NCBI GenBank assembly: GCA_024277355.1
Contig: JAJRVL010000004.1
Location: forward strand, 90,001-122,000
From: an archaeon
GTDB taxonomy: Archaea > Iainarchaeota > Iainarchaeia > Iainarchaeales > 1-14-0-10-31-34
Length of the DNA: 32,000 nt
Reading direction: 5' to 3'
Made by a program: the position numbers and the translations under genes. The notes under the pieces are model-generated. The model made no database searches. It was not told the origin of the DNA and worked only from the letters and a program-made list of their open reading frames with translations. Of this stretch, positions 1-6,796 are shown piece after piece; positions within the stretch are counted from its first letter, which is position 1, and every line of letters starts with the position of its first letter.

Positions 1-2494
1 CTTCTGCAGTTGAAGAAACACACACATCATAATTTCTGTTTCCAATTAAGTCTCCAGGAACCACATAATCATAATTTATTGTTATATTAGATAAATCCTC
101 AAAACTTAATTCAGAAAAATAAATTGAATTAACTGCTTTTTTTGCTGAAAGATTCTGCAAACTTATTCCTGCTTTAAGATTTGAAACTTTAATTGAATCA
201 ACTATTTCATTTGTTAATGAATCTCTTACAATAACAAAAAAAGAAGATGAATCAACAAAACCATTATTTTGTATTTTTGCAGTTAAACCGACATTTGATC
301 CAGGAGAAACTAATTTTCTATCAAAGTTTGCTTCACTTATTTTTAAGCTTACAAAATTACTGTATTTAAATAAAACTGAAGAAAGATTATTGTTTAATTC
401 ATCTGATTCAGCAAAAGAATTATCATAATCAACAAAAGCAGTAATATTATTTTCTACTTCAGGAATAGAAGAATAAGGCAGAATAAAAGAAAATTCCTGT
501 GATTCTTTTGGATTAATTGAACCAACTAAATCTGAAAAAATAATATTGCTTTCATTTATTTCTTCAATAAAAAAATAAACTTTAACTTGAGGAGAAATAA
601 ATTTACCGTTATTCCTTACTGTCAATAAAACTTTAGCATCTTCTTTTTCAAATAAAACGTCTTTTTCAAAACTAAATGATTCAAGCAGTAAGTCAAATCC
701 ATTATCAATTATTCCATCACCATCATCATCTATTCCGTTTTCTTCTTCTTTTGAAACAACTTTCAAAAACAAGGAATCAGAATCATTGAAAGGATTTCCA
801 TCTGTTTCTGTTCCATAACAATCAGAAGTAATTTTTATTTCTGTTTCACCTGAATTAAATCCAAGTAATTCAGGCATAAAATAAAAACCTGAATTATCTT
901 TTCCTGTTAAATTCCATGAATACAAAGAAGAAACATAGCTTTTTGGAAGAACTTTTTGTTTTCCGTTTACTGTAAATAAATAAGAAAAGCTAACAGATGA
1001 ATCAATAAATTCAAGCAAGGAATCTGAATTAAATACATCTTGTTTACCTGAAAAAACTAAAATTAATTCTTTTTCTTTTTTTTCATCTGAAACATTAACA
1101 CAAAAATTTTTACTGCTGAACTCATTAAAATAATCTTTATTTTCTCCTAATTTTGTCGTAATATCAAAAGGAATTACAATAAAAGAAGGAATTTGTTTTG
1201 AATCAAACCTGAATTTTTTATTTCCCTTTAAGTCAATTACAGGAAAAATTTTTTCATTTGAAGAAGAAAAAATAAATTCAGATAATTCAACTGAATAATC
1301 TGTTTTGCAGTCTTCATCTGTTTTTCCGTCTAAATCATCATCTAATCCATTATAACATAGTTCTTTTATTTCAGGATTAGATGAAACAACATTAAAAGAA
1401 AAAGAACCTGAATTATTATTTTTTGTTGCTTCATGAACTAAATTTAGTTTGTCAACTGAAATACTAAAATTTTCTGTTCCGCTTAAACCAAAAGAAGAAA
1501 CAAAAAAAGTTATTGTTTTTTTTTCGCCTGAATTTAATCCATAAACCATTTTTGATTCAATTGCTTTTCCCTGTGAATCTAAAAGAGAAACAACAAAATC
1601 AGAAGAAATCCCGCTTAAACCATTATTTGAAATAACTGCAGTTACAGGTATTTCTTCTCCTTGATTAATTAATTCAGGGAAATCCAATGAAGAAACAATT
1701 AAATCCGGATAATCAGATGACGCATTAAATAAAACTTCTTTTTGAAGTAAATTATTGTTTTCATTTTGTTCTTCAATTTCAAAAGCAGAATCAATTACTG
1801 CTTCAAAAACATGAGTTCCAGGAAAAACACTTGAATTAAATTCAAATAAAACTTCTTTTGTTTGACTTTGAGTTAAACCAAAAATTCTTTTTTCTCCGAT
1901 TAAAACTTTACCTGAATCAGAATTCAAATATAATGAAACAGTAAACGGCAATGAATCTTTTTTACCTGAATTAACTGTTTTAACTTTAATTTGAGTTGTC
2001 TGTCCTGTTGTAAGTGAATCTGAAACTTCAATTAAAGGAATTAAATCAGGTTTATTTGTTGCAATATTTAAAGCTGAAACTTTTGAATCAAAAACTGAAG
2101 GTTTATTATATTTATCAAATAACACTACTCTGACAGTATAACTTCCATCTTTTGCATCAGTTGAAATACCGCATACATCTTCAATTAAATTTGTTCCTGA
2201 AGTTTTCTGGCAGACTATTCCTGAATAAGTATTGCTTACAATCCAGCCCATTCCATTAACTATTTTAGTGCAGACTGAATTAGATAAATCTGTGTCTTCA
2301 TAAATATCTATTGCATAAGCTAAAGGACAGGAATAATTATAACTGAAATTTACTGGAACTTGTTCTCCTGCAGCAAAATCATAAGTATAATCAGATAAAA
2401 TATTAACAGGTTTATTAGAAATAACTCCTTCAGATAAAGCTGAAACACTGGAAAACAGCATTAAAAAAATTAAAATAATAATTGTATTTTTCAT
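1..2494 (-). CDS. Secreted CARDB-repeat cell-surface protein; C-terminus runs off the window (3'-partial)
   Basis: Missing from the supplied ORF track because it has no in-window stop. The ATG at 2494..2492 opens a frame I read without stops down to position 2 (831 codons). The N-terminus MKNTIIILIFLMLFSSVSALSEG is signal-peptide-like. At least four modules carry CARDB hallmarks: (K/Y)PDLI..., a V.N.G strand, and a terminal D...E..E.NNN motif (AVIDSAFEIEEQNENNN, VDKLNLVHEATKNNN, VDYDNSFAESDELNNN). A GAAGGA SD-like element lies just upstream of the ATG. Confidence 0.8.
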   Translation of the reverse strand, partial: MKNTIIILIFLMLFSSVSALSEGVISNKPVNILSDYTYDFAAGEQVPVNFSYNYSCPLAYAIDIYEDTDLSNSVCTKIVNGMGWIVSNTYSGIVCQKTSGTNLIEDVCGISTDAKDGSYTVRVVLFDKYNKPSVFDSKVSALNIATNKPDLIPLIEVSDSLTTGQTTQIKVKTVNSGKKDSLPFTVSLYLNSDSGKVLIGEKRIFGLTQSQTKEVLFEFNSSVFPGTHVFEAVIDSAFEIEEQNENNNLLQKEVLFNASSDYPDLIVSSLDFPELINQGEEIPVTAVISNNGLSGISSDFVVSLLDSQGKAIESKMVYGLNSGEKKTITFFVSSFGLSGTENFSISVDKLNLVHEATKNNNSGSFSFNVVSSNPEIKELCYNGLDDDLDGKTDEDCKTDYSVELSEFIFSSSNEKIFPVIDLKGNKKFRFDSKQIPSFIVIPFDITTKLGENKDYFNEFSSKNFCVNVSDEKKEKELILVFSGKQDVFNSDSLLEFIDSSVSFSYLFTVNGKQKVLPKSYVSSLYSWNLTGKDNSGFYFMPELLGFNSGETEIKITSDCYGTETDGNPFNDSDSLFLKVVSKEEENGIDDDGDGIIDNGFDLLLESFSFEKDVLFEKEDAKVLLTVRNNGKFISPQVKVYFFIEEINESNIIFSDLVGSINPKESQEFSFILPYSSIPEVENNITAFVDYDNSFAESDELNNNLSSVLFKYSNFVSLKISEANFDRKLVSPGSNVGLTAKIQNNGFVDSSSFFVIVRDSLTNEIVDSIKVSNLKAGISLQNLSAKKAVNSIYFSELSFEDLSNITINYDYVVPGDLIGNRNYDVCVSSTAE

Positions 2495-2538: not shown

Positions 2539-3762
2539 TTAACTCAACTCCTGCTTATTTTTCAGTTCAGTCATCCTATTTTCAAGTTTATCTAATTCTC
2601 TGTTATAATTTTCATACTGCTCTAAATAAACATCTCTTGAAATAATTTGTTTATTGAAATAATCATCCTGTAATTTTTTCATTAAAATCAATAATTTTTT
2701 TCTTTCTCTTTTATAAAAAATTCTTCTTACAAAAGTTTTTCCTTCTTTAAATGAAACAAAAATAACATAAAAAATGAATATTACAGGAAAAATATATACA
2801 ATTGCATTTTGTGCAATAAAATAATATAAATGGCCTTTTGGCTCTAAACTTAAAGCTAAATTCCCTGAATTAAAATACTGGTCTTCAGCTAAAACATTAA
2901 CATAAAATATTTCTGCATTTAAATCTTCAGTTGAAATTACAATAAAATAATTGCCTGACTCATTTTTCTGCAAATTAAATTTTTCATTATTATATTCAAC
3001 CCAAACTTTTGCATCAGGTACCGAAACATTATCAGAATAAATCGGTTTAACTTCTAATATTAATGGACTGCCAAAATTAAATTCATTAATTAAAGGTTTA
3101 ATTAACTGGATTTTAATTGGAACAAGCCTTACATTAAAAGAAACAATATTGCTTCCTCCATTTTTTTCTTTAGTTCCTGAAAGAGCTGTAACCATTAAAC
3201 CTTTTTTTTCTATTGCAGCATCAACAGGAATATTTATGTTTTCATAATAATAAATTCCGTTTCCTTCAAAATACATTCTTATTTTATTTCCATTAAAGTC
3301 CCAAAAATAAACTGTTGCATTATTTACAGAAATTCCTGCATCAGTTACTTTAACTCTTACATCAAATGACTGAGTTCTAAAATAAGAAGAACTAGCAGGA
3401 CTAATAAAATCAACTCTAAGGTATTCGCATTTAACTGAACTGTTAACTCTAAACCTTAATTCTTTTTCTTCTTCCTGATCTTTAACTAAAACAACCCAGT
3501 CTCCTGAAGGATCATTGCATGAAATAAAATGCTTAAAAGAAAAAAAACCTTTTTCATCAGGTTCAATTACAGCATTTAATACTGTTTTGTTTCCAGGCAA
3601 AGCATAAACCAAAAAATTAATTTTTCCTGTAGAAGAACCATTTAAGTCCATAAATTCTCCTTTTTCATAGCTCCCTTTTGGAAGTTCAACTGATAAAGAA
3701 GAAACAAAAGAAACAAAGAAAAACAAAAAAAATACAAAAAGAATTTTATTTTTTAATCCCAT
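2539..3762 (-). CDS. Type I single-pass surface protein: signal peptide, Ig/MG-like beta-rich ectodomain, TM helix, 69-aa cytoplasmic tail with SHOCT-like coiled motif
   Basis: N-terminal hydrophobic signal KILFVFFLFFFVSFVSSLSV. C-proximal TM helix YYFIAQNAIVYIFPVIFIFYVIFVSF. Tail: KKLQDDYFNKQIISRDVYLEQYENYNRELDKLENRMTELK. Ectodomain pattern (V.V.D..G..V.NA.V......G.Y) and tail are paralogous to the next gene. SD-like GAAGGAAG lies upstream. Confidence 0.75.
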   Translation of the reverse strand: MGLKNKILFVFFLFFFVSFVSSLSVELPKGSYEKGEFMDLNGSSTGKINFLVYALPGNKTVLNAVIEPDEKGFFSFKHFISCNDPSGDWVVLVKDQEEEKELRFRVNSSVKCEYLRVDFISPASSSYFRTQSFDVRVKVTDAGISVNNATVYFWDFNGNKIRMYFEGNGIYYYENINIPVDAAIEKKGLMVTALSGTKEKNGGSNIVSFNVRLVPIKIQLIKPLINEFNFGSPLILEVKPIYSDNVSVPDAKVWVEYNNEKFNLQKNESGNYFIVISTEDLNAEIFYVNVLAEDQYFNSGNLALSLEPKGHLYYFIAQNAIVYIFPVIFIFYVIFVSFKEGKTFVRRIFYKRERKKLLILMKKLQDDYFNKQIISRDVYLEQYENYNRELDKLENRMTELKNKQELS

Positions 3763-3791
3763 AAATCATCAACTTCCTTCTTTTTTTTCTT

Positions 3792-5885
3792 TTAAACTGC
3801 TTTCTTTAAGTGTGTTTCATTTTCTTTTTTTTCTGGTTGTTCTTCTGATTTTTTTTCGGTTTCTTTTGCTTTTTTTGGCATTGAAAATAATCCAGGAATC
3901 TCTTCATCTCCCTGAACTTTAAAAGTATTTTGTTTTTTTCCGTCTTTTACTTTAAACATTGATTCTAATTCTTTATCATCAAATGAATCTTCTACTTTTT
4001 TTCTTTCACCAAAAACTTCTTCATCTTCAACATCTTTAATTCCTTCTGTTTCCTGAGTTTTCTTAAACGATTCAATTGCTGAATCAATATCTCTTAACTC
4101 AGAAGAATACTGAGACAATAAAGAATAATATTGTTCGTTTCCAACTGCGCCTAAATTAAAGTATTTTTCCTGTAAATCGCTTTTTAATTTTTCCAGATCC
4201 TTTTTTCTTTTTTTCAGTGAACTTAACCTGTCCATTCTTTTTCTTATAACTATAATAACTACAATAATAAAAACAAAAGCAAAAATAACTGAAAGAAACA
4301 ATAAAGGATTTTCTCTGAAATAATACTCTAAAGTTAATTCTCCAGTTACTTCAAATAATTTAGTAAAAGTAATTGAATTACCAAAAGCATCTGATGCTTT
4401 AACATTTAATAATAATTGTCTTGCTTCAGATAAATCTTCATTATTTACAACATAAGAAAAATAAAATACTCCTTGTTCTTTTTCTGCTGCAAAAATATTT
4501 TTATCATTTATTTTAATTGAAACTTTAGCTTTGTTTAATGGTTTTCCATTTTCATAAGAAAATTTTAATTTAAATTTTAATTCTTCACCTAAAGCAGCTG
4601 TTTCTTTTTTTGGTTCAAGCAAAACAGGAATAATTTTTGCATTATCCACTGTAATAGTTAATTCATTTGAACCCCCGTATTTAATTGAACCAATTGTTTT
4701 TCTTGCATTAATTAAAATTTTTTGTTCACCTAAAGGAAAATCAAACGGAATTAAATAAGACAAAGAATATTTTCCATTTGAAACCATTCTTAAATCAACT
4801 TCTTTTCCATCAGGAAACAAAGCAATTACATCTGCATCTTCAACTGGTTTTTCATCAAACAATATATCCACTAAAAGTTTTATTTCCTGTCCTCGTCCAT
4901 AAAGTTTTTCATAATCAGAAAAAGTTACATCCATAAAAATTGTTCCGGTTTCCCTGCTTACAATAATATTTTTTTCTTTTAAGCCTTCGTTGTCAAAAGA
5001 ATCTGCTCCTGAAACTCTTAAAATCCAGTTTCCTTCAGGATAAATTAAACTTGTTCTCTGCTCTAAAGAAAAAAATCCGTTTTCATCTGATTTAGTTTTA
5101 TTTTCAAGAATTTTTATGCCTTTATTTAAAGCAGAAACAGTAATTACAGTTGAAATTGGTTTGCCTCTTTTAAATAATCTTCCATTAAAATTAATTATTT
5201 CTCCTAAAACAAAATTATTTTTATCTATTTCAAAATTTAAATCAAGAGAAGGATTAACTTTAACAATAAAATTTTTTACTGCACTAACTCCTAATTTTTC
5301 TGCATAAATTTCTGAAGCATAATCTGCTTTAACTGTTAATTCTGAAACCAAAAAACTTACTCCATAAACTCCATCATGTTCTTTTCCATCTAAATGATTT
5401 CCATCATCATACATTGGAATATCTCCTGCAAAAGTTTTAACCCTAACATTTGCATTTCTTGCAGTTACGCCGTCAGCTTTAACTTTAGCTTTAAATGTAA
5501 TTTCATCTCCCCTCAAAAAAATATTTGAGTCAGCTGGTTCAAGTAATTCAATTGTAATTGTTGTTGGAGCACAATCAGAATCACAGTTAGCAAAATCTTC
5601 TCCTGATTCACAAATATTGTTTCCGCAGCAATAATATTTTATTTGAGCACGGCATAAACCAGTTAAACAACTGTATTCTTTACATACGTCTCCCTGTACA
5701 TCCCCTGAACAAGTTCCGCAGTCACCAGAACAAGTGCATTTATCTTCGCCTGAATCACAGGTTCCATTATTATTGCAAGTAGATAAATCCCATATTAAAG
5801 GAGTATAATTATTAAATAATTCAGCAAAACCTACTGGAAGCAGTAAAAGCAAAAAAATTAATCCAAAAACACTAATTTTATTCAT
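3792..5885 (-). CDS. Type I single-pass surface protein: signal peptide, Cys-rich module, 4-5 Ig/MG-like repeats, TM helix, 150-aa cytoplasmic tail (SHOCT-like motif plus acidic/lysine-rich end)
   Basis: The track starts at a TTG (5909). The ATG at 5885 gives a much better signal peptide (MNKISVFGLIFLLLLLPVGFA) and has a GGTGA SD 9 nt upstream. There are 14 Cys in residues ~45-113. Repeats follow the pattern G(D/E).h.h...G.P...A.V.......G.Y. TM helix: LLFLSVIFAFVFIIVVIIVI. Tail: LKSDLQEKYFNLGAVGNEQYYSLLSQYSSELRDIDSAIESFK. Confidence 0.8.
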   Translation of the reverse strand: MNKISVFGLIFLLLLLPVGFAELFNNYTPLIWDLSTCNNNGTCDSGEDKCTCSGDCGTCSGDVQGDVCKEYSCLTGLCRAQIKYYCCGNNICESGEDFANCDSDCAPTTITIELLEPADSNIFLRGDEITFKAKVKADGVTARNANVRVKTFAGDIPMYDDGNHLDGKEHDGVYGVSFLVSELTVKADYASEIYAEKLGVSAVKNFIVKVNPSLDLNFEIDKNNFVLGEIINFNGRLFKRGKPISTVITVSALNKGIKILENKTKSDENGFFSLEQRTSLIYPEGNWILRVSGADSFDNEGLKEKNIIVSRETGTIFMDVTFSDYEKLYGRGQEIKLLVDILFDEKPVEDADVIALFPDGKEVDLRMVSNGKYSLSYLIPFDFPLGEQKILINARKTIGSIKYGGSNELTITVDNAKIIPVLLEPKKETAALGEELKFKLKFSYENGKPLNKAKVSIKINDKNIFAAEKEQGVFYFSYVVNNEDLSEARQLLLNVKASDAFGNSITFTKLFEVTGELTLEYYFRENPLLFLSVIFAFVFIIVVIIVIRKRMDRLSSLKKRKKDLEKLKSDLQEKYFNLGAVGNEQYYSLLSQYSSELRDIDSAIESFKKTQETEGIKDVEDEEVFGERKKVEDSFDDKELESMFKVKDGKKQNTFKVQGDEEIPGLFSMPKKAKETEKKSEEQPEKKENETHLKKAV

Positions 5886-5944
5886 TAAACATTTCACCGC
5901 AAACTTCAATTAAATTTATTTCAAAAAATTCATTCATTAATTTT

Positions 5945-6796
5945 TCACCACAAAATTTCATCTGTTTTCTTTTTTTCTTTTACTTTTTCAAAAGTTACGC
6001 CTTTATCAGTTAAAGAATAAGGAAGCAAAGTTTTTGAGTGATTAGTACAACGCATTTTCAGTATTTCCACTGCTCTTCTTCTTGAATTACCTGTTTTAAC
6101 ATTATATAATACTATTACGCCGTCAGCTAAAAATTCTTCTATTCCTGTTCTTGAATAAATTCCTGGGTCTTGTTCAGTTTCAGAAATAATAAAATTAACT
6201 GAATCATACTGGTTTAATGAATCAAACATATGCTTAATGTAATACCTGTAATTTTCAGAGTTCCCCATGAATGCAACACTTAAAGCAGACAAAGAATCAA
6301 CTACAATTTTATCAGGAACAAAAGGCAATTCAAGCTGTTCAACCTGAACCAATAAAGCTCTTCTTTGTTTTAATAAAGAAGCTTCAACACTTCTTGCAAT
6401 TTTAAATGGATTAATTTTTAATACAGCAAATTTTCCTTTTTCTTCAAATTTAGCTAAATCCCAGCCATAATTGTTTCTCATATGTCTTTTGAGTTTTTCT
6501 GCTGTTTCTTCAAATAAAATATAAACTGCTTTTTCTCCTTTTAATAAACTGTGATACAAAGACTGCATACAAAAAGTGCTTTTTCCTGTTCCGCATCCGC
6601 CTGAAATCAAAATAGTTGAACCTCTTTCAATGCCTCCTGCATCTAAATGAGAATCAAATTCAGCAACTCTTACAGGCAAAAACTCAATTTTTTCTTTTCT
6701 TTTCTGCCTTCTTTCCTTCATATCCTCTAATTCTTCTTCTTCAATACTTCCAGGTTCAATTTCTTCTTTTCCTGCAAACTTAATTCCAAAAGGCAT
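5945..6796 (-). CDS. KaiC/RecA-superfamily ATPase (single-domain, COG0467-like)
   Basis: Walker A ISGGCGTGKSTF. Walker B-like KIVVDSLSAL. KaiC-family C-terminal signature ILKMRCTNHSKTLLPYSLTDKGVTF (compare KMRG..H......F.It..Gi). No signal peptide or TM helix. Charged N-terminal extension EEEELEDMKERRQKRKEK. Confidence 0.85.
   Translation of the reverse strand: MPFGIKFAGKEEIEPGSIEEEELEDMKERRQKRKEKIEFLPVRVAEFDSHLDAGGIERGSTILISGGCGTGKSTFCMQSLYHSLLKGEKAVYILFEETAEKLKRHMRNNYGWDLAKFEEKGKFAVLKINPFKIARSVEASLLKQRRALLVQVEQLELPFVPDKIVVDSLSALSVAFMGNSENYRYYIKHMFDSLNQYDSVNFIISETEQDPGIYSRTGIEEFLADGVIVLYNVKTGNSRRRAVEILKMRCTNHSKTLLPYSLTDKGVTFEKVKEKKKTDEILW

What the first reader, a model, noticed from the sequence alone, without database searches (positions are those of the whole stretch)
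2584..4196. Shared SHOCT-like cytoplasmic tail motif on two otherwise divergent surface proteins
Seen: immediately after their TM helices both proteins carry a colinear motif.
- LQDDYFNKQIISRDVYLEQYENYNRELDKL (DNA 2584-2685)
- LQEKYFNLGAVGNEQYYSLLSQYSSELRDI (DNA 4071-4196)

The consensus is LQ..YFN...h....Y......Y..EL..h.

Known: the pattern (L..L...G.I....Y......L) recalls the Pfam SHOCT 'short C-terminal domain', a putative oligomerisation module on membrane-protein termini.

Inference: conservation of the tail while the ectodomains diverge suggests the tail is a docking or oligomerisation element. It is the obvious handle for a cytoplasmic partner such as the adjacent ATPase. The longer tail also carries an acidic stretch and a PGLFSMPKK element.
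Basis: partly seen in the sequence, partly recalled or inferred. Interest (0 to 1): 0.6.

Follow-up and report, generated by a model that had tools for sequence, protein, structure and literature searches.

The report
Conserved inner tail on paired surface proteins
Two neighbouring cell-surface proteins of a tiny DPANN archaeon share a real, conserved 60-residue helix-loop-helix tail just inside the membrane; such tails nearly always sit beside one KaiC-type ATPase, but the two proteins are full-length relatives, not unrelated proteins sharing a module.

Summary
The motif is real and not compositional. It lies at nt 2584-2673 and 4086-4175. The pairwise score beats 5000 shuffles, and the tail-profile comparison gives E 1.3e-10.

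"Otherwise divergent" is wrong. The two proteins are colinear paralogues (26% identity over 402 aa, E 3e-20), and the tail is no more alike (29%) than the rest.

The tail is a roughly 60-aa juxtamembrane helix-loop-helix. The first helix continues from the TM helix, the loop is NKQIIS or NLGAVG, and a second helix follows.
- It starts about 5 aa after the single C-terminal TM.
- It matches no Pfam or NCBIfam model.
- It occurs in 94 of 215 genomes of the phylum and in 239 representative proteins, in 1-3 tandem copies.

Link to the ATPase:
- 62 of 64 genomes with the window-type KaiC-like ATPase have tails.
- There are about two tails per ATPase.
- Tail genes lie next to the ATPase in 17 of 18 fetched loci.
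- Docking on the ATPase is therefore well supported by genomic context but not shown physically.

SHOCT kinship is only suggestive (no HMM hit; hhalign 54-64%). An OST1-tail kinship is also only suggestive.

The CARDB neighbour lacks the tail.

This scan found the same module earlier in other DPANN genomes.

The parts
2539..3762 (-). p1: 407-aa type-I membrane protein. It has a signal peptide, three Ig/macroglobulin-like beta-sandwich domains, one TM helix and the cytoplasmic tail.
   Evidence: ORF. AlphaFold2 model on 13 orthologues, mean pLDDT 84.3. Foldseek hits to complement C3/C5 MG domains and adhesin Ig domains, E about 1e-13.
2743..2820 (-). p1 transmembrane helix (about residues 315-340).
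   Evidence: Hydropathy. It is part of the continuous model helix 311-369.
2542..2736 (-). p1 tail domain (residues 343-407). A basic helix continuous with the TM runs up to LQDDYF. Then comes the loop NKQIIS (370-375), then helix 376-406.
   Evidence: Tail HMM match 343-408. Model secondary structure with pLDDT 80-90. Mean pairwise identity among orthologues is 66% for the tail and 57% for the ectodomain.
2584..2673 (-). p1 core motif LQDDYFNKQIISRDVYLEQYENYNRELDKL.
   Evidence: Q365, Y368, F369, N370, Q372, I374, R376, Q382, Y386 and L390 are invariant in 13 orthologues.
3792..5909 (-). p2: 705-aa ORF. The database start gives 697 aa (ATG at 5885). It has a signal peptide, a Cys-rich tip, Ig-like domains colinear with p1, one TM, the tail and a long distal extension.
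4242..4319 (-). p2 transmembrane helix (about residues 531-556).
   Evidence: Hydropathy.
4044..4241 (-). p2 tail domain (residues 557-622), homologous to the p1 tail.
   Evidence: Tail HMM match 557-622. hhalign E 1.3e-10. Mean identity 67.5% among 15 orthologues against 58% for the ectodomain.
4086..4175 (-). p2 core motif LQEKYFNLGAVGNEQYYSLLSQYSSELRDI.
   Evidence: L571, Q572, Y575, F576, N577, G579, E584, Y586, Y587, L589, L590, Y593, E596, R598 and I600 are invariant in 15 orthologues (P0017 numbering).
3795..4043 (-). p2 distal tail. It has an acidic stretch and repeated (hydrophobic)-F-x-(hydrophobic)-K-type motifs (SMFKVK, TFKVQ, GLFSMPKK). It is lineage-specific.
   Evidence: SFDDxELxSMFKV and PGLFSxPKK are conserved in alignment A2. 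Mean identity is only 40%. p2-like proteins of other families end right after the tail.
3753..3794 (-). Premature TAA (3792-3794), followed in frame by KKKKKEVDDLWD and the ancestral stop. That stop overlaps the p1 start codon.
   Evidence: Orthologues read through to ...DDLW[DEKS].
5945..6796 (-). Single-domain KaiC-like ATPase, the first gene of the cluster. Walker A is GCGTGKST, followed by an acidic FEE pair. The C-terminus is ...KKKTDEILW.
   Evidence: Pfam PF06745, E 1.7e-49. Best solved relative is KaiC 8zn5, E 1.6e-56. Sequence read.
2..2494 (-). CARDB-repeat surface protein, the fourth gene; it runs off the window. It has no LQ..YFN tail. It ends in about three TM helices and a Lys-rich tail ...KGKFILKL.
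   Evidence: Pfam CARDB, E 1.8e-41. Full C-terminus read from the genome. Orthologues.

Best explanation
The shared motif is the core of a roughly 60-residue cytoplasmic juxtamembrane domain. A basic amphipathic helix continues straight out of the single C-terminal TM helix and ends in L-Q-x-x-Y-F. A short loop follows (often N-x-G-x-I-S). Then comes a second amphipathic helix (Y-x6-Y-x2-E-L-x2-I).

p1 and p2 carry it because they are tandem paralogues of one DPANN family. They share the whole membrane-proximal Ig-like stalk, the TM and the tail.

Shown:
- homology of the tails
- strong conservation
- helix-loop-helix prediction
- position right after the TM
- family-wide occurrence in sets of 2-3 paralogues (or 2-3 tandem copies on giant proteins)
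- tight co-location and about 2:1 copy-number coupling with one branch of single-domain KaiC-like ATPases

Inferred: the tails of the paralogues pack together under the membrane into a small helical bundle. That bundle recruits or regulates the KaiC-like hexamer. The module would then link events at the cell surface (adhesion or host contact) to ATP-dependent signalling or assembly in the cytoplasm.

The fold may be a distant relative of SHOCT and/or of the OST1 cytosolic domain, but the tail is not a member of either family as defined.
For: - Tail homology.
- Conservation in 13 and 15 orthologues.
- Structure: model helix 311-369, loop 370-375, helix 376-406, pLDDT 80-90. Both halves of a 326-tail alignment show 95-100 degree hydrophobic periodicity, with Gly/Pro enrichment between them.
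- Position: of 147 representative tail proteins, 127 have a TM upstream. The median gap is 11 aa, and 124 have a gap of 40 aa or less. Copy numbers 1/2/3 occur in 57/68/22 proteins.
- Distribution: 94 of 215 phylum genomes and 239 representatives at E<=1e-3.
- ATPase link, operon: the order ATPase-p2-p1-CARDB is conserved in distant orthologous loci.
- ATPase link, loci: 17 of 18 fetched loci have 2-3 tailed paralogues beside a close ATPase homologue, although gene order and strand vary.
- ATPase link, genomes: 62 of 64 ATPase-positive genomes are tail-positive. Mean tails are 1.9/3.4/4.75/8 for 1/2/3/4 ATPases, Spearman 0.73.
- By my manual cross-reading, about two thirds of the 100 listed ATPase genes have a listed tail within 5 kb.
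- The same trio (giant protein with 2 tails, a ~300-aa partner with 1 tail, and the ATPase) occurs in other families and in a bin labelled Thermoplasmatota.
Against: - No physical or structural evidence for tail-ATPase or tail-tail contact. No multimer prediction was available.
- Adjacent genes are co-inherited, so co-occurrence counts among related genomes overstate independence.
- Tail-like modules also occur on ~800-1100-aa single-pass proteins with no KaiC gene in the fetched stretch (L100-L102, L107). L051 is another such case. Thirty-two tail-positive genomes lack an ATPase at E<=1e-40. ATPase binding therefore cannot be a property of every tail.
- No tail-KaiC fusion was found among 20 representative proteins scanned for Pfam domains.
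- The CARDB protein belongs to the operon without having the tail.
Confidence: 0.55

Rival explanations
1. The tail is a bona fide, divergent SHOCT domain. It does whatever SHOCT does on membrane-protein termini, independently of the ATPase.
For: - hhalign of tail profiles against 18 phylum SHOCT domains gives 53.5-63.9% probability, P 1.3e-4 to 6.6e-5. The score of 21.0 compares with 8.2 +/- 1.9 (maximum 13.6) for 100 column-shuffled controls and 9.8 for the reversed alignment.
- Bridging proteins exist. In ~800-aa single-pass proteins (L075/L107, L102) a tail-like repeat and a near-threshold SHOCT repeat (25.9 bits, cut-off 27) stand in tandem or overlap after the TM.
- Both are two amphipathic helices around a Gly-containing turn.
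Against: - No SHOCT HMM hit at E<=10 on the window tails, and none listed for 86 tails or tail-bearing fragments.
- The alignment needs a one-residue gap, whereas SHOCT is described as free of indels.
- Gly is replaced by Gln in the whole p1 family.
- The near-invariant Q-x-x-Y-F is not a SHOCT feature.
- The domain is twice as long as SHOCT.
- SHOCT has no established function.
Confidence: 0.3
2. The tail is homologous to the cytosolic helical domain of OST1/ribophorin I. Like that domain, it binds ribosomes (or RNA) at the membrane.
For: - A lead from an earlier scan note.
- PDB 8WHN (MK-D1 OST1 cytosolic domain) ranks 5th of 177,635 sequences with two different tail profiles.
- A 326-tail HMM scores the aligned 8WHN stretch at 25.2 bits in two repeats. 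Five hundred shuffles give -0.9 +/- 2.5, maximum 9.9. hhalign gives 54%, P 1.3e-4.
- Both domains follow the single TM of a type-I protein. The OST1 domain is a 4-helix bundle that pulls down ribosomes (PMC11417166).
Against: - The PDB-wide E-values are not significant (0.78 and 0.18). An unrelated streptococcal adhesin scores better by chance (E 0.004).
- Foldseek of a modelled tandem-tail region found no 8WHN and nothing below E 0.8, although the model was weak (pTM 0.36).
- No ribophorin I lumenal domain appears in p1 or p2.
- Ribosome binding would not explain the fixed partnership with a KaiC-like ATPase.
Confidence: 0.2
3. The tail is only a homo- or hetero-oligomerising coiled coil with positive-inside anchor residues. 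It holds the paralogous surface proteins together, and the ATPase acts on something else in the operon.
For: - Amphipathic 3-4 spacing in both helices and a basic first helix.
- Proteins always come in sets of 2-3, or carry 2-3 tandem copies.
- Some tails occur without a KaiC gene nearby.
Against: - A plain coiled coil would not keep near-invariant Q, Y, F and Y positions across a phylum (73, 72, 70 and 69+6F of 75).
- The about 2:1 coupling with one ATPase branch is left unexplained.
Confidence: 0.2
4. The resemblance is chance or composition (K/E/Y-rich helices).
For: Weak look-alikes of many helical families appear at E 0.01-1. A regex hit in an unrelated Lys-rich 590-aa protein of the same genome is coincidental.
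Against: 0 of 5000 shuffles reach the real score. Profile-profile E is 1.3e-10. The domain is recovered phylum-wide.
Confidence: 0.01

Closest known systems
SHOCT domain (Pfam PF09851)
   Same: - Two short amphipathic helices around a Gly-containing turn, with a G-x-I-[ST]-x-x-E-[YF]-like core.
- Often on the cytoplasmic end of membrane proteins.
- Profile-profile similarity above shuffled controls.
   Different: - No HMM match.
- About 60 aa rather than about 28 aa.
- A one-residue indel is needed in the alignment.
- The Gly is lost in the p1 family.
- The signature Q-x-x-Y-F and the C-terminal Y-x2-E-L-x2-I helix are absent from SHOCT.
- The tail is fixed directly behind a TM helix and tied to a KaiC-like ATPase.
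Cytosolic C-terminal domain of OST1/ribophorin I (PDB 8WHN; PMC11417166)
   Same: - A helical domain directly after the single TM of a type-I protein.
- It contains two tail-like repeats, of which the second reads LLKDRYKRGKLPSKAAYERL.
- Local HMM score far above shuffles.
   Different: - Not significant in a PDB-wide search.
- OST1 has four helices in one chain, whereas p1 and p2 have two.
- A different ectodomain.
- OST1 acts in the oligosaccharyltransferase and binds ribosomes, with no KaiC partner.
KaiC-like ATPases of archaea, including ArlH of the archaellum motor and the 'signal-transduction hub' proposal of Makarova, Galperin and Koonin 2017 (cited in PMC6393860; the paper itself was not held)
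   Same: A single RecA-fold KaiC-type ATPase encoded with membrane or surface machinery.
   Different: - The window ATPase is far below the ArlH and KaiC_arch model cut-offs.
- Its partners are paired Ig-like surface proteins with this tail, not ArlI/ArlJ or pilins.
- I found no description of the pairing in the papers searched.
HAMP domain of transmembrane receptors (analogy recalled from general knowledge)
   Same: A helix-loop-helix of about 50-60 aa that continues from the last TM helix. In dimers it forms a four-helix bundle relaying signals to cytoplasmic partners.
   Different: No HAMP match in any Pfam scan listing. The loop is shorter. No fused output domain follows.

Membership tests
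SHOCT (PF09851) | Match to the Pfam model at or above 27 bits | tested here: not met
   No hit at E<=10 on either tail or in the six-frame genome search. No SHOCT hit listed among 6 + 34 + 46 tails or tail-bearing fragments.
SHOCT (PF09851) | Two amphipathic helices joined by a short loop | tested here: met
   Model helix-loop-helix. Periodicity of 95-100 degrees in both halves.
SHOCT (PF09851) | Strongly conserved Gly and Glu, and no insertions or deletions (PMC3581485) | tested here: not met
   Gly is present in p2 but is Gln in all 13 p1 orthologues, and occurs in only 45 of 75 tails. The hhalign alignment needs a one-residue gap.
SHOCT (PF09851) | Profile-profile homology | tested here: inconclusive
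   53.5-63.9% probability, P about 1e-4, above 100 shuffled controls. Bridging repeats in L075, L102 and L107.
OST1/ribophorin I | Ribophorin I lumenal domain | tested here: not met
   No such Pfam hit in p1 or p2. The ectodomain consists of MG/Ig-like sandwiches.
OST1/ribophorin I | Sequence similarity of the cytosolic domain to 8WHN | tested here: inconclusive
   PDB-wide E 0.78 and 0.18. Local score 25.2 bits against a shuffle maximum of 9.9.
OST1/ribophorin I | Four-helix bundle fold | tested here: inconclusive
   A single tail has two helices. The tandem-tail model has four helices but pTM 0.36 and no Foldseek match to 8WHN.
OST1/ribophorin I | Ribosome binding | not testable with these tools
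   Needs a pull-down or co-sedimentation assay.
DPANN tailed surface protein / KaiC-like ATPase module (undescribed in papers searched; noted earlier in this scan) | Signal peptide, Ig-like stalk, one C-terminal TM, then the tail within about 40 aa | tested here: met
DPANN tailed surface protein / KaiC-like ATPase module (undescribed in papers searched; noted earlier in this scan) | Two or more tailed paralogues in tandem beside a dedicated single-domain KaiC-like ATPase | tested here: met
   Window genes at 5945-6796, 3792-5909 and 2539-3762. The same arrangement occurs.
HAMP (PF00672) | Match to the Pfam model | tested here: not met
   No HAMP hit listed.

The most novel reading that the evidence does not exclude
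The single-copy tails of two or three paralogous surface proteins assemble under the membrane into an OST1- or HAMP-like helical bundle. That bundle is the dedicated receptor for one branch of KaiC-like hexameric ATPases. The result would be a previously undescribed transmembrane signalling or force-generating apparatus, through which DPANN archaea couple surface or host contact to the cytoplasm. A deep evolutionary link to the ribosome-docking tail of OST1 would follow.
Probability: 0.3. Interest if true: 0.8.

Novelty: new variant of a known kind. Interest (0 to 1): 0.55.

Why it matters
DPANN archaea live attached to other cells, yet how they sense or handle contact is largely unknown.
- A conserved cytoplasmic domain on their Ig-like surface proteins, always partnered with one KaiC-like ATPase, gives a concrete and testable handle. 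The tail peptides and the ATPase are small soluble pieces that can be expressed and assayed.
- It would give a defined partner to one branch of the archaeal KaiC-like ATPases.
- The domain has no Pfam or NCBIfam model, so a family definition would improve annotation of several hundred 'hypothetical' proteins.
- For this particular finding the correction matters too: the shared tail reflects tandem duplication of a whole stalk-TM-tail cassette, not a module shuffled between unrelated proteins.

Tried and rejected
Searches that found no family or structure:
- Pfam on whole proteins, tails and 86 tails or tail-bearing fragments shows no consistent family.
- NCBIfam gives only a sub-threshold choice-of-anchor X hit in the p2 ectodomain.
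- PDB sequence-profile searches with three tail alignments find nothing significant. The best hit is a chance LQNSYYNGKKISKIVY in streptococcal AgI/II.
- Foldseek of a single-sequence model of a natural tandem-tail region (L091) finds nothing below E 0.8. CdvA is top but not significant.
- CdvA also appears weakly. I treat it as generic helical-hairpin likeness.

Leads rejected:
- A regex hit for the motif in a 590-aa Lys-rich protein on contig C9 is not recognised by the tail HMM.
- A search for tail-KaiC fusion proteins among representatives found none.
- N-terminal extensions of longer ATPase homologues have no Pfam domain.
- There is no DNA-level repeat between the two tails and no Rfam family in the region.

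Tools and papers not available:
- The Makarova 2017 KaiC paper is not in the held library.
- Co-phylogeny of tails and ATPases was considered and dropped, because adjacent genes are co-inherited and it would not discriminate.


Full report
**Setting.** The window is contig C2:90001-122000 of a 1.13-Mb, 27% G+C, 96%-complete genome. Close relatives are labelled Candidatus Diapherotrites, Iainarchaeum or Micrarchaeota, that is DPANN archaea. On the minus strand lie four tightly packed genes:
- a single-domain KaiC-like ATPase (5945-6796; PF06745, E 1.7e-49)
- p2 (3792-5909; 705-aa ORF, 697 aa from the database start)
- p1 (2539-3762; 407 aa)
- a CARDB-repeat protein (2-2494, running off the window)

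A TraB-family gene is divergent upstream.

**The observation.** Both quoted strings exist. In p1 the motif is residues 364-393 (nt 2584-2673); in p2 it is residues 579-608 (nt 4086-4175). Each protein has an N-terminal signal-like helix and one C-terminal TM helix, at about 315-340 in p1 and 531-556 in p2.

The similarity of the tails is not compositional:
- Smith-Waterman scores 74 against 29.7 +/- 5.7 for 5000 shuffles, and none reaches 74.
- BLASTP of the tails alone gives E 1e-4.
- A profile of 13 p1-orthologue tails aligns with a profile of 15 p2-orthologue tails over 57 ungapped columns at 96.9% probability, E 1.3e-10.

**The correction.** The proteins are not 'otherwise divergent'. BLASTP aligns p1 residues 23-405 colinearly with p2 residues 224-620 (26% identity, E 3e-20). 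p2 is p1 plus an N-terminal extension (Cys-rich tip and extra domains) and a C-terminal extension. The tail is 29% identical between them, about the same as the rest. The shared tail is therefore inherited with the whole protein by tandem duplication.

Within each orthologue set the tail is somewhat better conserved than the ectodomain:
- p1 family: 66% for the tail and 72% for the core, against 57% for the ectodomain.
- p2 family: 67.5% against 58%.

Many tail positions are invariant. The most distant p1 orthologue (40% identity overall) keeps KLQDDYFNKQMITRKIF.

**Anatomy.**
- An AlphaFold2 model of p1 on 13 orthologues has mean pLDDT 84.3.
- It shows three beta-sandwich domains (residues 24-107, 116-212, 217-309). 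Foldseek matches them to complement C3/C5 macroglobulin domains and adhesin Ig domains at E about 1e-13.
- One continuous helix then runs from 311 to 369. It covers the TM, a basic stretch and LQDDYF.
- A six-residue loop NKQIIS (370-375) and a second helix (376-406) follow. pLDDT is 80-90 through the tail.
- In an alignment of 326 tails, both halves show alpha-helical hydrophobic periodicity (95-100 degrees). Gly/Pro are enriched exactly between them.
- The consensus from 75 phylum tails is L-x6-L-x2-L-x-K-x-L-Q-x2-Y-F-x2-G-x-I-S-x3-Y-x6-Y-x2-E-L-x2-I. Q occurs in 73, Y in 72, F in 70 and the next Y in 69 of 75.

**Distribution.**
- The 6-tail profile finds the domain in 94 of 215 genomes of the phylum, with up to 8 copies per genome.
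- It finds 239 proteins among 1.84 billion representatives at E<=1e-3.
- I examined 147 of these representatives. A TM lies upstream in 127; most of the rest are short fragments. The gap to the tail has a median of 11 aa, and is 40 aa or less in 124. Tails come in 1, 2 or 3 tandem copies (57/68/22). The last copy ends a median of 13 aa from the C-terminus.
- Ectodomains differ widely (Laminin_G_3, NPCBM_assoc, Big_7, CARDB, DUF11, MG2).
- Within the phylum most tailed proteins also share the membrane-proximal domain, which has a D-x-x-G-N motif.
- In the window's own genome only p1 and p2 carry the tail.
- No Pfam or NCBIfam model covers it.

**The neighbours.**
- The order ATPase-p2-p1-CARDB, with overlapping stops and starts, recurs in loci whose p2 is only 44-68% identical.
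- I fetched 18 loci from across the phylum. Seventeen have 2-3 tandem tailed paralogues beside a close homologue of the window ATPase (phmmer E about 1e-39 to 1e-104). The ATPase may lie upstream, downstream or on the other strand.
- Of 64 genomes with that ATPase at E<=1e-40, 62 have tails. The 2x2 table over 215 genomes is 62/2/32/119.
- Tail copies scale with ATPase copies: 1.9, 3.4, 4.75 and 8 tails for 1, 2, 3 and 4 ATPases (Spearman 0.73, not corrected for relatedness).
- By my manual cross-reading, about two thirds of the 100 listed ATPase genes have a listed tail within 5 kb. Many of the rest sit on short contigs or may match tails that were not listed.
- Other families, and a bin labelled Thermoplasmatota, show a variant: a giant protein with two tandem tails, a ~300-aa partner with one tail, and the ATPase.
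Nothing here shows contact.
- There are exceptions. Proteins of ~800-1100 aa in families f10 and f17 carry tail-like repeats with no KaiC gene in the fetched stretch.

**SHOCT.**
- The Pfam model (28 positions) hits neither tail at E<=10. No SHOCT hit was listed for 86 tails or tail-bearing fragments scanned singly.
- I collected 18 genuine SHOCT domains from the same phylum.
- hhalign of a 75-tail profile against them gives 53.5% probability, P 1.3e-4, score 21.0. One hundred column-shuffled SHOCT alignments give 8.2 +/- 1.9 (maximum 13.6), and the reversed alignment 9.8.
- A 326-tail profile gives 63.9%, P 6.6e-5 over 26 columns, with a one-residue gap.
- Some ~800-aa single-pass proteins carry, after the TM, a tail-like repeat followed by or overlapping a near-threshold SHOCT repeat (25.9 bits, cut-off 27).
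- This suggests distant kinship but is not membership. SHOCT is described as about 30 aa, free of indels, with a strongly conserved Gly and Glu. Its authors' size-exclusion experiment did not support oligomerisation (PMC3581485). The p1 family has Gln in place of the Gly.

**OST1.** After my own analysis I read earlier notes of this scan. Several describe the same tailed-protein and KaiC pairing in other DPANN genomes. One proposes kinship with the cytosolic domain of OST1/ribophorin I (PDB 8WHN). I tested that proposal:
- 8WHN ranks 5th in PDB-wide profile searches with two different tail alignments, but at E 0.78 and 0.18.
- An unrelated streptococcal adhesin scores better by chance (E 0.004).
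- Locally, the 326-tail HMM scores the aligned 8WHN stretch at 25.2 bits in two repeats. Five hundred shuffles give -0.9 +/- 2.5 (maximum 9.9). hhalign gives 54%.
- 8WHN is a four-helix bundle directly after a single TM, and it pulls down ribosomes (PMC11417166).
- A single-sequence model of a natural tandem-tail region has four helices but pTM 0.36. It has no Foldseek match below E 0.8.

The kinship is possible but unproven. It suggests how two single-copy tails might pair into a four-helix bundle.

**The longer tail of p2.**
- Beyond the domain lie an acidic stretch and motifs conserved in the closest orthologues: SFDDxELxSMFKV and PGLFSxPKK. These are absent from p2-like proteins of other families, which end right after the tail.
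- Orthologues in the same genus end in [DE]DLW[DEKS]. In the window a TAA (3792-3794) stops p2 13 codons early. The frame then continues KKKKKEVDDLWD to a stop that overlaps the p1 start.
- The CARDB gene also has one in-frame TAA just outside the window. Its orthologue is uninterrupted.
My crude count of same-frame ORF pairs is compatible with that. Reads could not be checked.

**CARDB C-terminus.** Read from the genome, the CARDB protein continues after its internal stop. It ends in about three TM helices and a Lys-rich tail ...KGKFILKL, with no LQ..YFN motif. Its complete orthologues likewise end in F-x-L-[KR]-[LI].

**Verdict.** The motif is real and marks an unmodelled juxtamembrane helix-loop-helix domain. 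That domain belongs to a DPANN family of paired surface proteins tied to a KaiC-like ATPase. The 'shared module on divergent proteins' framing is wrong for this pair, and SHOCT is at best a distant relative. The module has been seen repeatedly by this scan on other DNA. I found no description of it in the papers I could search.

Noticed in passing
window 3753-3794 (minus strand): p2 is cut 13 codons early by a TAA. The same frame continues KKKKKEVDDLWD to the ancestral stop, which overlaps the p1 ATG. Same-genus orthologues read through to ...DDLW.
   Followed up: partly
G000:C2:89864-89866, 135 nt before the window start: One in-frame TAA splits the CARDB gene (876 + 353 aa). The orthologue in L006 is an uninterrupted 1234 aa. 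Many other same-frame ORF pairs separated by a single stop exist in this genome record.
   Followed up: partly
window 5948-5981 and 3759-3792: The C-terminal coding ends of the ATPase (...KKKTDEILW) and of read-through p2 (...KKKKKEVDDLWD) are 71% identical over 34 nt. In the same genus the ATPase ends [DE][DE][IS]LW wherever p2 ends [DE]DLW. More distant clades have neither ending. This may be a shared C-terminal docking peptide.
   Followed up: partly
C-terminus of the CARDB protein (G000:C2 about 88805-88830); window 3890-3990: All complete CARDB orthologues end in K-[KG]-F-x-L-[KR]-[LI]. This resembles the repeated (hydrophobic)-F-x-(hydrophobic)-K-K motifs in the p2 distal tail (SMFKVK, GLFSMPKK). 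It could be a second short linear motif shared by operon members that lack the main tail.
   Followed up: no
L039, L041, L045, L052, L055 against L042, L046, L049, L053, L054: Loci with three tailed paralogues tend to have longer ATPase ORFs (385-525 aa, with an N-terminal extension that has no Pfam domain). Loci with two tails have ATPase ORFs of 261-311 aa. ORF starts were not verified.
   Followed up: partly
L102 (G054), L107 (G153), L108 (G050): About 800-aa single-pass proteins carry a tail-like repeat and a near-threshold SHOCT repeat in tandem after the TM. No KaiC gene lies in the fetched stretch. They may be evolutionary intermediates between SHOCT and the tail.
   Followed up: partly
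window 5571-5800 (p2 N-terminal tip): A Cys-rich region (14 Cys, with the unit CDSGEDKC..DCG repeated) is the best-conserved part of the p2 ectodomain, at 74% mean identity.
   Followed up: no
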